Source: Patescibacteria group bacterium (GTDB lineage: Bacteria; Patescibacteriota; Patescibacteriia; SG8-24). From it: a stretch of 64,000 nt of DNA. Position 1 is the stretch's first letter; the number at the start of each line of letters is the position of its first letter. Below the pieces are notes generated by a model, which saw only the letters and a program-made list of their open reading frames with translations, had not been told where the DNA came from and ran no database searches. Made by a program: the position numbers and the translations under genes. This document shows positions 8,043 to 10,043 of this stretch, in pieces. The stretch lies in the NCBI GenBank assembly GCA_034716415.1, contig JAYEJB010000043.1, positions 705 to 64,704 on the forward strand. Direction: 5' to 3'.

Positions 8043-8290
8043 GAAGCAGGTTGGCCTGCTGATGACCGTTGCGGCAATAGGATACAAAAACAGGAACTAA
8101 GTTCGAATCCTAGTCTCGTAGCCAAAGCATTGCGGTGCATATGGACCCAGTAGGGTGCCCTAAATATGGGGCTGTCATATGGACCGGAGTGCTATGACCA
8201 ACCGAAAACCCGGGGTGTAGACCTCGGGTTTTTGCATTGACAGTTGCTAGTCAAAATGCGAAGGTCTTATTGGCTAACTGTACATGAAAT

Positions 8291-8560
8291 ATGGTGCTTA
8301 GAACTCAAATCGCTAAAATTAGCAGATACATAAAGGGTCTTTGGTTCAATGCACGCACGTCAAATCTGCGAGCAGTTTTTGATGATGATTTGGATCAGCT
8401 TATTGATTCTCTGGGTTTGCGCGATCAGTTTGAATCTGGAAACATTCGATGCGGTTTCTGTAATGAAGTAATTACGTTCGATAATTTGCGCGCATTGACC
8501 AAGATCAAGGATGAAATTGTGGTAATTTGTGATAAAGCACAGTGTATTGATCGAATATGA
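8291..8560 (+). CDS. hypothetical small protein with a C-terminal zinc-ribbon-like CxxC...CxxxxC motif
   Basis: 89 aa with CGFCNEV...VICDKAQC. It lies in a segment that is clearly AT-rich relative to the flanks, and its stop overlaps the next start (ATGA). Confidence 0.5.
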   Translation: MVLRTQIAKISRYIKGLWFNARTSNLRAVFDDDLDQLIDSLGLRDQFESGNIRCGFCNEVITFDNLRALTKIKDEIVVICDKAQCIDRI

Positions 8561-9597
8561 TGCAAAGTGCATGGGAATTTATAAAGAGTATCTTGACAGT
8601 AATTGGCGGCCTGTATGTTCTTCTGCGTGCCGTAAATTTGTTTTTTGGAGAAGTAAAAAAGTTCAATGAAATAAGGGCTCGGTTTTTGGAATGGTTATTG
8701 GGCTTTTTTCGGCACCGAGGACTTGTAAAGGCGGCCGTTGCGAGTGATATCGAACAAAACGTTAATGAAATCGTCAGTGATTTACAGGAGGAGTTGCCAC
8801 TCGGTTGGATATCTCGGACATCAATTAAATGGGTACGTGATGCGAGCGCCGAAACTTTGGGGGACGGGGAAGTGATAATTAGGCTGCGTCCGCTTGAGAG
8901 CCAAGATCTTAATTTCCTAACAGCGCTCAACGTATTTTTTCAGAAGTCAGTTTATCCAAAGCTTAAAACAGTCGTTCCAGAGAATGTATGCAAGGCTGTT
9001 GCTTTGAAGTTGTCACAGAGGACGATCAACGTTAAGAAACCATATCTCGAAGACAAATATAAGGAAGATGTCATGGAGCCAATTGTGCAAAATGATCCCA
9101 GTATCGCTTCATATATTGGTCGATATGAAAAAATTGATGAGAAAGGTTTTTTCACAGGTACGTTCATTCGCGAATCTAGTGAGATTGCGAGGAGGGCACA
9201 ATTCAAGGAATTAAGGAGTAGTATCGATAGTGAATTGGACTCCTTGCTAGAGCATATCGAAGCATTTTCTCAGCAGATATCTCCAGGACAACAAAAAAGA
9301 TCTGAAGAGTTATGGTACAGAGAAGGACCTGAAACTAGTTATGCGTTTTTATTGGTCGCGAATCCGGATCGCGTGGGAAATGCCGAACCATATATTAATC
9401 GTGCCAAGGTTAGGGCTGGTGTTGTTGAACGATTATATGTGTTCGGCGCCAGCGGGCAGGAATCATTTGCTCGGACTGTGATATCAATGATTGCAGCTTT
9501 GCCCGAATATGAACTGAAGGAGGTGTTTCAGCTATACCGTGATTATCGGGGTAATTTGGGTGGGATTGGTGCACTGTTAGTTTCTAGGAAGAAGTAA
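8557..9597 (+). CDS. hypothetical protein with an N-terminal TM anchor and a ~310-aa soluble domain
   Basis: 346 aa with one hydrophobic helix at ~8-30. It is translationally coupled to 8291..8560 and AT-rich. No family recognised. Confidence 0.5.
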   Translation: MMQSAWEFIKSILTVIGGLYVLLRAVNLFFGEVKKFNEIRARFLEWLLGFFRHRGLVKAAVASDIEQNVNEIVSDLQEELPLGWISRTSIKWVRDASAETLGDGEVIIRLRPLESQDLNFLTALNVFFQKSVYPKLKTVVPENVCKAVALKLSQRTINVKKPYLEDKYKEDVMEPIVQNDPSIASYIGRYEKIDEKGFFTGTFIRESSEIARRAQFKELRSSIDSELDSLLEHIEAFSQQISPGQQKRSEELWYREGPETSYAFLLVANPDRVGNAEPYINRAKVRAGVVERLYVFGASGQESFARTVISMIAALPEYELKEVFQLYRDYRGNLGGIGALLVSRKK

Positions 9598-9857
9598 CGA
9601 GACTTTGCGTTGCAGTAATGATAAATTCGTCTTCACACAAGAGAGAAGCTCGCGCTTCTCTTCTTTTGTTCCGGTCGTGAGGACATGCCGGACGTAGGCT
9701 TTGTGGTCGAGGCGAGGGACTTTCTTCAGTCCGCTGTCTGCACCTAGTACGCTCTCCATCAGTGATTGATACTTCGCGATTTCCGTATCGAATTTCTTCT
9801 TTGATTAGGTGTCAGGTCTTGAATGTTGGCATTTTTCAAAACGTCCAAACACAAAAT

Positions 9858-9880
9858 AACCGCCTTTCGGCGGTTGTTTT
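9858..9880 (+). terminator. rho-independent terminator (aaccgcc tttc ggcggtt + TTTT), bidirectional in shape
   Basis: 7-bp GC stem with a U-run after it and an A-run before it. Confidence 0.5.
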
Positions 9881-9978
9881 GACGTGGTAGCCCATAGTAG
9901 TGTGAATTGGAACACCTTGATAGGGGAGGTGGGGAGGTGGTTTGGGGAGTTGGTGGTGCGACAATGTTAGTGCGATTC

Positions 9979-10043
9979 GGGGCCGTGTCTTTAATCTTTA
10001 GTTTTTGGGTGGTATCGCTGGATTAAAGACACGGTCCGGTCCC
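9979..10043. repeat. ~65-nt imperfect palindrome (hairpin repeat family 3), copy 2
   Basis: ggggccgtgtctttaatctttagtttttgggtggtatcgctggattaaagacacggtccggtccc. Shares the ctttaatctttagttttt core and gattaaagac arms with copy 1. Confidence 0.6.

What the first reader, a model, noticed from the sequence alone, without database searches (positions are those of the whole stretch)
8046..10043. AT-rich two-gene cassette (Zn-ribbon 89-aa + TM-anchored 346-aa protein) bracketed by ~60-nt hairpin repeats: candidate horizontally acquired defence/addiction module
- Composition: ORFs 8291..8560 and 8557..9597 sit in a segment that is conspicuously AT-rich. A hand count of the first 60 nt of the first ORF gives ~35% GC, against ~62% for 60 nt of neighbouring fmt.
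- Boundaries: the segment is delimited by two imperfect palindromes with GATTAAAGAC arms, at 7985..8042 and 9979..10043.
- Gene layout: the two genes are translationally coupled (ATGA overlap).
- Proteins: the small one ends in a CxxC...CxxxxC zinc-ribbon-like motif. The large one has one N-terminal TM helix and a ~310-aa domain that I cannot place in a known family.
- Interpretation (inference): a compositionally foreign, hairpin-bounded, coupled small-plus-large pair next to housekeeping genes is the typical footprint of anti-phage, abortive-infection or toxin-antitoxin cassettes.
- A 75-codon ORF fragment on the opposite strand at 9577..9800 and strong terminators at 9858 and 10057 close the unit.
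Basis: partly seen in the sequence, partly recalled or inferred. Interest (0 to 1): 0.75.

Follow-up and report, generated by a model that had tools for sequence, protein, structure and literature searches.

The report
Orphaned restriction-linked mobile gene pair
A foreign, AT-rich stretch in a Patescibacteria genome carries a conserved, uncharacterised two-gene unit: a small zinc-ribbon protein and a membrane-anchored protein with an Alba-like nucleic-acid-binding domain. Elsewhere this unit rides on serine-recombinase mobile elements inside restriction-modification operons, so it is a credible but untested new defence or addiction module.

Summary
The segment is the most compositionally deviant in the 64-kb window (GC 0.44 vs 0.553, z -4.2; tetranucleotide z +5.0; GC3 0.34/0.40 vs 0.65-0.76). 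Both hairpins, the ATGA overlap, the 4-Cys motif, the N-terminal TM helix and the terminators are real.

New findings:
1. The minus-strand "ORF fragment" is the last ~68 codons of a large serine recombinase, in the same convergent layout as an intact homologous locus. The locus is therefore a decayed integrative element.
2. The small+large pair is a conserved unit in 13 of 13 loci. The large family has 456 clusters at 50% identity. No Pfam, NCBIfam, PADLOC or PHROG match was found.
3. In other genomes the pair sits at the 3' end of C-protein-controlled type II, type III or type IIG-like R-M operons, next to large serine recombinases.
5. The hairpins form a four-copy local family with compensatory stem changes. 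They are not att or attC sites.

Horizontal acquisition is well supported. A defence or addiction function rests on association only and is untested. The mechanism proposed is a membrane-anchored nucleic-acid-binding effector held in check by the zinc-ribbon partner.

The parts
6969..6990 (+). Solo right arm of the hairpin repeat (TAGATTAAAGACCTAACCCC). It lies 17 nt after the stop of the Wzy-like gene, at the left edge of the low-GC island.
7985..8042 (+). Complete hairpin A: 20-bp arms and an 18-nt loop.
   Evidence: (I3)
8043..8240 (+). Strongly structured non-coding leader or candidate small RNA. It ends in an intrinsic terminator (stem 8209-8228, T-run to 8233) and holds a tRNA-3'-end-like GTTCGAATCC...GCCA at 8101-8124. 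It is not conserved in other loci.
   Evidence: (MFE -85.6, z -5.5); no tRNA or Rfam call
8291..8560 (+). Small 89-aa protein: two short helices plus a 4-Cys zinc ribbon (C54, C57, C80, C85). It is the invariable upstream partner of the large gene.
8557..9597 (+). Large 346-aa protein: N-terminal TM helix (N-out, C-in), basic juxtamembrane helices, a helical domain (~116-240) and a C-terminal Alba-like alpha/beta domain (~250-346).
9641..9662 (+). Terminator-like hairpin 44 nt after the stop of the large gene.
9577..9804 (-). Pseudogene remnant: the C-terminal ~68 codons of a large serine recombinase, convergent with the large gene and overlapping its 3' end.
   Evidence: BLASTP E 1e-08 to residues 359-426 of the 427-aa recombinase of L032; tblastn against the whole window: best hit 9801-9595, E 6e-05
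9808..9835 (+). Degenerate solo left arm of the hairpin repeat (71% identical to the arm of hairpin A). It abuts the point where the recombinase reading frame is cut off.
   Evidence: (D1, I1)
9858..9875 (.). GC-rich terminator-like hairpin.
9979..10043 (+). Complete hairpin B: 17-bp arms and a 24-nt loop. Its outer stem differs from hairpin A by three compensatory pairs.
   Evidence: (I5)
10051..10084 (.). Perfect 15-bp inverted repeat with flanking A/T runs. It is a bidirectional terminator at the 3' end of fmt and marks the right edge of the island.
   Evidence: I6

Best explanation
The segment is the decayed remnant of an integrative element that was mobilised by a large serine recombinase. 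It inserted between a cell-surface glycan cluster and fmt in a Patescibacteria genome.

What survives is the element's most conserved cargo: a translationally coupled gene pair. One gene encodes a small 4-Cys zinc-ribbon protein. The other encodes a bitopic membrane protein whose cytoplasmic part ends in an Alba-like nucleic-acid-binding domain.

In intact relatives this pair is transcribed as the last genes of C-protein-controlled restriction-modification operons. These operons are of several unrelated R-M types.

Proposed mechanism (inferred, not shown):
- The large protein is a membrane-anchored effector or sensor. It binds RNA, or possibly incoming or excised DNA, through its basic Alba-like domain.
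- The zinc-ribbon partner, made in fixed ratio through the overlapping stop and start codons, keeps it in check.
- When the balance is disturbed, by phage infection, by inhibition of the co-resident R-M system, or by loss of the element, the large protein acts against the cell or the invader.
- The pair would thus serve as a second-line defence or addiction module that travels with R-M systems.

Shown here: foreign origin, the recombinase remnant, conservation of the pair, the R-M and recombinase neighbourhood, the TM helix plus Alba-like architecture, and the RNA-binding-domain fusions.

Inferred: nucleic-acid binding, toxin-antidote logic, and a defence role.
For: Foreign origin. The segment has the lowest GC and the most deviant tetranucleotide content in the window, and GC3 is 0.34-0.40 against 0.65-0.76 in neighbours. 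The flanks are housekeeping: Wzx, GT4, GT2 and Wzy-like genes upstream, and fmt, def and priA downstream.

Recombinase remnant. Window 9595-9801(-) aligns to the last 68 residues of the L032 large serine recombinase (32% identity, 58% positives, E 1e-08). It is the best hit of that protein in the whole window (E 6e-05). The gene order is the same as in L032: small, large, then a convergent recombinase.

Conserved pair. A small-protein homologue lies directly upstream of the large gene in 13 of 13 loci. The overlap is ATGA in 7 of them; the rest have overlaps of 11-49 nt or a 3-nt gap. There are 47 close homologues of the large protein and 41 of the small one, and 456 clusters at 50% identity for the large protein.

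Neighbourhood.
- HTH_3, N6_N4 methyltransferase, ResIII, then the pair (L001/2).
- N6_N4 methyltransferase, DEAD/ResIII, then the pair (L031).
- HTH_3, C5 methyltransferase, R.HinP1I, Vsr, then the pair (L008-11).
- Recombinase, HTH_3, the pair, methyltransferase, trypsin-like protease, NYN, ResIII (L003).
- Recombinase, HTH_3, His-Me endonuclease, methyltransferase, then the pair (L017).
- The pair, IS240, then methyltransferase/Mrr (L018).

Architecture.
- The AlphaFold2 model has pLDDT 88.9 and pTM 0.83.
- The top 19 Foldseek hits are all Alba (probability 0.99-1.00).
- The Alba-like domain is basic (mean pI 9.2, net charge +4.7).
- The TM helix is kept in 93% of members, and K+R residues are enriched after it (5.2 vs 1.0), which places the domain in the cytoplasm.
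- Longer family members add OST-HTH/LOTUS, NusA-type KH or four S1 domains at the C-terminus (also P0045-47).

Hints of toxin-antidote logic.
- The pair persists alone after the rest of the element decayed (this window; also L016).
- The large gene is split in L017 while the small gene is intact.
- An orphan small-protein homologue sits in a phage-like region with no large partner (L020).
Against: - No R-M gene and no intact recombinase is present in this window.
- No match to any known defence, toxin or antitoxin family, across the whole family as well.
- The residues conserved across 146 members (N70, W92, N119, D194, G197, E206, E226, Y279, Y294) do not form a recognisable nuclease or other catalytic motif.
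- The Alba relation is at fold level only and comes from a predicted model. hhalign against an Alba sequence typed in from memory (Sso10b-like, unverified) gives probability 0.6%, and Pfam and PDB sequence searches are negative.
- The neighbourhood survey covers only about 12 informative contexts. They were chosen for contig length, not sampled systematically, and no enrichment statistic was computed.
- Several contexts are housekeeping or prophage-like with no R-M nearby (L005, L007, L014, L016).
- No homologues were found in sequenced phages, plasmids or IMG/VR contigs.
Confidence: 0.45

Rival explanations
1. The pair is a pure addiction (toxin-antitoxin-like) module. Its only role is to stabilise the serine-recombinase/R-M element, and it plays no part in phage defence. 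The zinc-ribbon protein would be a labile antidote and the membrane protein the toxin.
For: The layout is small gene upstream, large gene downstream, with overlapping stop and start codons. The pair survives here and in L016 after all other element genes were lost. The large gene is split in L017 while the small gene is intact.
Against: No similarity to any toxin or antitoxin family. The small protein has no recognisable DNA-binding autoregulatory domain. R-M systems are already addictive, so a second addiction module in the same operon is not obviously needed. RNA-binding-domain fusions are unusual for membrane toxins.
Confidence: 0.2
2. The pair is a regulatory or maintenance accessory of the mobile element. 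It would be a membrane-tethered RNA/DNA-binding complex that controls establishment of the co-transferred R-M system, for example by sequestering or timing its mRNA, or that handles the excised element DNA at the membrane.
For: The pair is transcribed in the same operon as R-M genes of unrelated types, under an HTH_3 controller-like protein. It has an Alba-like fold and KH, S1 or OST-HTH fusions, which are typical of RNA-binding regulators rather than killers. No catalytic motif was found.
Against: The pair persists without any R-M gene or recombinase (this window, L016), which a dedicated regulator of those genes should not do. There is no direct evidence for any target.
Confidence: 0.15
3. 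The hairpins are the functional boundaries. On this view the segment is a gene cassette mobilised through hairpin recombination sites (integron attC-like, REP/RAYT-like or IS200/IS605-like ends).
For: Four copies or remnants of one palindrome family all lie inside the 3.1-kb island and divide it into cassette-like units. There are none elsewhere in the 64 kb. Three compensatory pairs preserve the stem. A near-identical hairpin occurs in an unrelated GC-rich contig (L026).
Against: No other locus carrying the pair has such hairpins. The arms of each hairpin match each other rather than the opposite hairpin, so they are not attL/attR hybrids. No RYYYAAC/GTTRRRY core sites were seen. No IntI, RAYT or Y1-transposase match among the nine flanking ORFs that were scanned; most of the window's ORFs were not scanned. 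The only mobility gene trace is a serine recombinase.
Confidence: 0.1
4. The large protein is a housekeeping membrane-anchored RNA-metabolism scaffold, analogous in layout to RNase Y, that merely happens to sit in a variable region.
For: Its layout of TM helix, helical region and RNA-binding-type domains resembles membrane-anchored RNA-processing proteins.
Against: Composition is foreign. Distribution is patchy and contexts are variable and mobile. The family is rare in genome collections, with 4 loci recovered from 185,579 species genomes by the pattern scan. No nuclease domain was found.
Confidence: 0.05

Closest known systems
Alba superfamily (archaeal Alba/Sso10b, eukaryotic ALBA, Pop7/Rpp20, Rpp25/Pop6, SpoVS; IF3-C-like fold)
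   Different: No sequence-level relationship was detected. The domain is fused behind a TM helix and a ~190-residue helical region, an architecture that neither the family and structure searches nor the four literature searches run here turned up for Alba proteins. It is bacterial, carried on mobile elements, and paired with a zinc-ribbon protein.
R-M-embedded anticodon nucleases PrrC/RloC (an RNA-targeting backup held latent by a linked R-M system; from established literature, recalled, not tested here)
   Same: An extra, predicted RNA-directed component is encoded inside R-M operons of different types. This logic would explain why the pair travels with R-M systems.
   Different: No ABC-ATPase or anticodon-nuclease domain, and no nuclease motif at all. 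The protein is membrane-anchored, has two components, and also occurs without R-M genes.
Type II toxin-antitoxin and two-gene abortive-infection cassettes
   Same: A small upstream gene overlaps a larger downstream gene. The cassette is carried on mobile elements and persists as an orphan pair in a decayed element.
   Different: No homology to any catalogued toxin, antitoxin or PADLOC defence protein. The putative effector is 346 aa with a nucleic-acid-binding fold rather than a known toxin fold.
Large-serine-recombinase integrative elements carrying C-protein-controlled R-M cassettes
   Same: Intact relatives have a Resolvase+Recombinase+Zn_ribbon_recom gene, an HTH_3 gene and R-M genes next to the pair. 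The window keeps the recombinase C-terminus.
   Different: Here the catalytic part of the recombinase, the HTH_3 gene and all R-M genes are gone. The att sites could not be identified.

Membership tests
Alba superfamily | beta1-alpha1-beta2-alpha2-beta3-beta4 fold that superposes on solved Alba structures | tested here: met
Alba superfamily | Sequence-profile membership (Pfam Alba/SpoVS models or HMM similarity to Alba sequences) | tested here: not met
   No Pfam hit. No PDB sequence hit with the family profile. hhalign probability 0.6% against an Alba sequence typed in from memory (unverified), although the aligned stretch is the topologically equivalent alpha1-beta2.
Alba superfamily | Binds DNA or RNA, usually as a dimer | not testable with these tools
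   Indirect evidence only: a basic domain (pI 9.2) and C-terminal OST-HTH, KH or S1 fusions in relatives.
Zinc ribbon | Two CxxC-type knuckles on beta-hairpins, with four conserved Cys | tested here: met
   C54, C57, C80 and C85 are invariant in 41 sequences. The model has strands 66-72 and 75-80, pLDDT 83-89 over residues 31-89. No specific zinc-ribbon family was matched.
Known anti-phage defence systems (PADLOC-DB v2) | Significant match of either protein to a model of a known or candidate defence protein | tested here: not met
   No hits for the window proteins. Across 46 family members there are only five single, unrelated hits at E 0.002-0.007.
Type II toxin-antitoxin | Adjacent, co-transcribed small and large genes | tested here: met
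   Overlap or a gap of 3 nt or less in 13 of 13 loci.
Type II toxin-antitoxin | Homology to a known toxin or antitoxin superfamily; toxicity neutralised by the partner | tested here: not met
   No family match. Toxicity and neutralisation cannot be tested with these tools.
Large serine recombinase (for 9577-9804, minus strand) | N-terminal resolvase catalytic domain, recombinase domain and zinc beta-ribbon | tested here: not met
   Only the C-terminal tail (residues 359-426 of a 427-aa homologue) is present. No other part of any recombinase aligns in the window. It is therefore a pseudogene remnant, not a functional member.
Integron gene cassette / attC | Imperfect palindrome with R''/R' core sites (RYYYAAC...GTTRRRY) and an IntI integrase nearby | tested here: not met
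   The arms read GGGGTCAGATCTTTAATCTT/AAGATTAAAGACCTGACCCC and no AAC/GTT cores appear at the stem ends. The flanking ORFs that were scanned are glycan and housekeeping genes. The whole window was not scanned for IntI.
attL/attR of a serine-recombinase element | Hybrid sites: each flanking site shares one half with the other site's opposite half | tested here: not met
   Each hairpin's two arms match each other, with three compensatory differences between hairpins. The cross-matching pattern expected of hybrid sites is not seen.
R-M-linked accessory (PrrC/RloC-like logic) | Encoded inside an R-M operon | tested here: inconclusive
   Met in L001/2, L003, L008-11 and L031, with nearby R-M or methyltransferase genes in L017, L018 and L032. 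Not met in this window, L005, L007, L014 or L016.

The most novel reading that the evidence does not exclude
The pair is a previously undescribed anti-phage or abortive-infection system that guards restriction-modification systems. A membrane-anchored Alba-like protein senses phage or aberrant RNA at the inner face of the membrane. The sensing surface is extended in relatives by KH, S1 or LOTUS domains. The protein then kills or arrests the cell unless it is restrained by its zinc-ribbon partner. Some phages may carry orphan copies of the zinc-ribbon partner as an antidote (L020).
Probability: 0.25. Interest if true: 0.75.

Novelty: new variant of a known kind. Interest (0 to 1): 0.6.

Why it matters
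If the pair is functional, it would add a new protein architecture to the accessory modules that travel with restriction-modification systems: a bitopic membrane protein with an Alba-like domain plus a zinc-ribbon partner. It would also give the first indication of what an Alba-fold protein does on bacterial mobile elements.

The family is sizeable (456 clusters at 50% identity). It is entirely unannotated and nearly confined to uncultured lineages such as Patescibacteria, whose defence repertoire is poorly known.

The pair is small (1.3 kb) and self-contained, so it can be tested directly by heterologous expression.

Tried and rejected
- **tRNA/tmRNA integration site.** ARAGORN and Rfam found nothing in the window or in 7800-10120, even at E<=10. 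The GTTCGAATCC...GCCA string at 8101-8124 stays a curiosity.
- **Weak Rfam matches.** CRISPR-DR63 at 9843-9880 scores 30 bits against a gathering score of 37. The miRNA, RNAI and snoRNA matches are chance hits on hairpins.
- **Recombinase remnant, first attempts.** BLASTP against the recombinases of L003, L009 and L005, a small recombinase HMM, tblastn on plasmids and the word-indexed protein search were all negative. Only the L032 recombinase, found later in the same convergent position, gave a significant and positionally exact match.
- **HTH_3 or other element genes hidden in 7826-8290 or 9598-10090.** tblastn gave nothing.
- **Hairpins as attL/attR or integron attC.** Rejected on arm pattern and missing core motifs (sequence).
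- **Hairpin arm in viral contigs.** Only coding-region or AT-rich chance matches, with no palindrome.
- **Hairpins next to the pair in other loci.** None.
- **Homologues of the large protein in IMG/VR, sequenced phages and plasmids.** None.
- **Names for relatives.** Only 'hypothetical protein', plus one 'NusA-like' label that comes from the fused KH domain.
- **Literature.** Four full-text searches found no description of this architecture.
- **Fold search against AFDB50.** The library was not available.
- **Catalytic motif.** None was recognisable among the conserved residues.
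Full report
**1. What is in the sequence**

The window comes from a Patescibacteria (CPR) metagenome-assembled genome. The large protein is 100% identical to an NCBI entry 'MAG: hypothetical protein U9Q03_03530 [Patescibacteria group bacterium]'.

The flanks are ordinary. Upstream lie Wzx-like, GT4, GT2, GT2 and Wzy-like glycan genes. Downstream on the minus strand lie fmt, def and priA.

Between the Wzy-like stop (6952) and the fmt stop (10091) lies a 3.1-kb low-GC island:
- The 8043-9978 stretch has GC 0.44 against a window mean of 0.553 (z -4.2).
- It lies in the only region of the 64 kb below 0.48.
- Its tetranucleotide distance is the largest of 311 windows (z +5.0).
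- GC3 is 0.34 and 0.40 for the two ORFs, against 0.65-0.76 for the neighbours.

The two ORFs (8291-8560 and 8557-9597) overlap by ATGA.

**2. The hairpins**

Hairpin A (7985-8042) and hairpin B (9979-10043) are real:
- They share an exact 19-mer, with none expected by chance.
- They fold far better than shuffled sequence (z -7.1 and -5.2).
- Their outer stems differ at three positions by fully compensatory changes, so pairing itself is maintained.

Two more remnants exist. A solo right arm lies at 6969-6990, 17 nt after the Wzy-like stop. A degenerate solo left arm lies at 9808-9835. No copy lies elsewhere in the 64 kb.

The family therefore subdivides the whole island as follows: arm, ORF 7031-7825, hairpin A, the pair plus the recombinase remnant, arm, hairpin B. 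It does not simply bracket the pair.

What the hairpins are not:
- The two arms of each hairpin match each other rather than the other hairpin, which is not what attL/attR hybrids would show.
- There are no integron R''/R' cores.
- Hairpins of this kind are absent from every other locus that carries the pair.

A nearly identical palindrome sits after an NtrC-like gene in an unrelated GC-rich metagenome contig (L026). Matches of the arm in viral contigs are chance. What the hairpins do remains unexplained. They look like a small mobile or recombinogenic palindrome family associated with this island.

**3. The 'ORF fragment' is a serine-recombinase remnant**

Comparisons with four recombinases from related loci were negative, and a database search found nothing.

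Locus L032 then showed a large serine recombinase immediately downstream of, and convergent with, the pair. The window fragment aligns end to end with the last 68 residues of that protein (residues 359-426 of 427; 32% identity, 58% positives, E 1e-08).

In a tblastn of that recombinase against all 64 kb, the best hit is exactly 9801-9595 on the minus strand (E 6e-05). No other part of a recombinase is present.

The reading frame is cut off exactly where the degenerate hairpin arm begins (9805-9808). The locus is therefore a decayed integrative element that has lost its recombinase body.

**4. The pair is the conserved unit**

- The large protein has 47 close homologues of about 350-370 aa at 30-50% identity. 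An exhaustive HMMER search finds 456 clusters at 50% identity, 127 of them below E 1e-10.
- The small protein has 41 homologues of 67-101 aa with four invariant cysteines.
- In all 13 loci examined, a small-protein homologue lies directly upstream of the large gene. Seven share the ATGA overlap. Four have overlaps of 11-49 nt, which may reflect mechanical start calls, and two have a 3-nt gap.
- Neither protein matches Pfam, NCBIfam, PHROGs or PADLOC. No homologue is found in sequenced phages, plasmids or IMG/VR. Source names are only 'hypothetical protein'.
- Named genomes that hold the pair are Patescibacteria, Parcubacteria, Saccharibacteria and Bacteroidetes, plus a short contig binned as Bdellovibrionales. 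A distant member comes from Gemmatimonadales.

**5. Genomic company**

| Locus | Gene order |
|---|---|
| L001/2 | HTH_3, N6_N4 methyltransferase, ResIII, small, large (3-nt gap) |
| L031 | N6_N4 methyltransferase, DEAD/ResIII, small, large |
| L008-11 | HTH_3, C5 methyltransferase, R.HinP1I, Vsr, small, large; a serine recombinase upstream in L009 |
| L003 | recombinase, HTH_3, small, large, methyltransferase, trypsin-like, NYN, ResIII |
| L017 | recombinase, HTH_3, His-Me endonuclease, LexA/S24-methyltransferase, small, large (large split in two ORFs) |
| L018 | small, large, IS240 transposase, methyltransferase/Mrr |
| L005, L015 | a recombinase or recombinase fragment nearby, no R-M |
| L007, L014 | prophage-like or mobile regions |
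| L016 | the pair alone among housekeeping genes, as in this window |

R-M or methyltransferase genes lie within about 5 kb in 7 of 12 informative contexts. A large serine recombinase lies within about 5 kb in 6 of 12.

The R-M systems are of unrelated types (type II C5, type III, type IIG-like). The link is therefore to R-M cassettes in general, not to one enzymology. This survey is small and not random, and no enrichment statistic was computed.

**6. What the proteins look like**

The AlphaFold2 model of the large protein is confident (pLDDT 88.9, pTM 0.83). Its parts are:
- a long N-terminal helix containing the hydrophobic segment;
- basic juxtamembrane helices;
- a less ordered conserved stretch (78-115);
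- a helical domain (116-240);
- a C-terminal alpha/beta domain (250-346).

There is no sequence-level signal, so this is a fold assignment, not family membership. The domain is basic (mean pI 9.2).

The TM helix is present in 93% of 146 full-length relatives. The positive-inside rule (5.2 K+R after the helix against 1.0 before it) puts the bulk of the protein in the cytoplasm.

Longer family members carry extra C-terminal OST-HTH/LOTUS, NusA-type KH or four S1 domains, all of them RNA-binding modules (P0045-47). The OST-HTH form keeps the small upstream partner.

Conserved residues across the family give no recognisable catalytic motif.

The small protein models as two short helices plus a zinc ribbon (pLDDT 75) and has no significant structural neighbour.

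**7. Interpretation**

Shown:
- The segment is foreign DNA left by a serine-recombinase element.
- The conserved cargo is a coupled pair: a zinc-ribbon protein and a membrane-anchored protein with an Alba-like domain.
- Elsewhere that pair is co-transcribed with R-M systems.
- The domain fusions point to RNA or nucleic-acid binding.

Inferred:
- The large protein is an effector or sensor at the membrane, kept in check by the small protein.
- The pair acts as a second-line defence or addiction module accompanying R-M systems. This logic is reminiscent of the R-M-embedded anticodon nucleases PrrC/RloC (recalled from the literature, not tested here).

Three weak hints fit a toxin-antidote relation:
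- orphan persistence of the pair here and in L016;
- a split large gene with an intact small gene in L017;
- an orphan small-protein homologue in a phage-like region carrying YopX, a replication initiator, HNH and a sigma factor.

Rival readings are listed separately with their tests: pure addiction, a regulatory or maintenance accessory, a hairpin-mobilised cassette, and a housekeeping RNA scaffold.

**8. Verdict**

It is plausible but unproven about defence or addiction, and only partly right about the hairpins as boundaries.

The protein families are undescribed. The kind of thing, a small accessory module riding with R-M systems on mobile elements, is known.

Interest is moderate to high because the family is large and unannotated, has an unusual architecture, and is directly testable.

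Noticed in passing
window 8043-8240 (+): This non-coding stretch folds much better than shuffled sequence (MFE -85.6 kcal/mol, z -5.5) and ends in an intrinsic terminator (stem 8209-8228 plus T-run) just upstream of the small gene. It contains a tRNA-3'-end-like GTTCGAATCCTAGTCTCGTAGCCA (8101-8124) and a direct repeat CATATGGACC (starting near 8141 and 8177). No tRNA, tmRNA or Rfam call was made, and the stretch is not conserved in other loci.
   Followed up: partly
window 6969-6990 and 9808-9835; L026:2069-2135: Extra remnants of the hairpin family: a solo right arm and a degenerate solo left arm. A near-identical 31-bp-stem palindrome lies after an NtrC-like gene in an unrelated GC-rich metagenome contig. 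The element type and its means of spread are unexplained.
   Followed up: partly
window 7031-7825 (+): An orphan 264-aa ORF with a lipoprotein-like N-terminus (LTGVGC lipobox), intermediate GC (0.51, GC3 0.59) and no family match. It sits between the solo hairpin arm and hairpin A, so it may be a second foreign cassette.
   Followed up: partly
window 9922-9958 (+): A G-rich tract (AGGGGAGGTGGGGAGGTGGTTTGGGGAGTTGGTGGTG) between the terminator at 9858-9875 and hairpin B. Its function is unknown.
   Followed up: no
L020:7001-7204 (also L021): An orphan 67-aa homologue of the small zinc-ribbon protein, with no large partner. It lies in a phage-like region (YopX, replication initiator, HNH endonucleases, sigma factor) and may be a phage-borne antidote or decoy.
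   Followed up: partly
L017:7255-8353: In a Parcubacteria genome the large gene is split into 207-aa and 173-aa ORFs, probably by a frameshift, while the small gene is intact. The same locus has a LexA/S24-peptidase domain fused to an N6_N4 methyltransferase.
   Followed up: no
L003:10146-12011: A trypsin-like protease gene and an NYN ribonuclease gene lie between the methyltransferase and ResIII genes of the R-M operon that also holds the pair. This is another hint of RNA-directed components in these cassettes.
   Followed up: no
L018:1423-4404: An RtcB RNA ligase gene interrupted by an intein lies about 2.6 kb upstream of the pair. This is probably coincidental.
   Followed up: no
L012 (Logan contig SRR26901924_290003): An independent 2,065-bp assembly is 100% identical to window 7765-9829. 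Its right end (9829) falls inside the degenerate hairpin arm at 9808-9835; its left end (7765) is about 220 nt upstream of hairpin A. The right-hand break may reflect an assembly stop at a repeat or population heterogeneity.
   Followed up: partly
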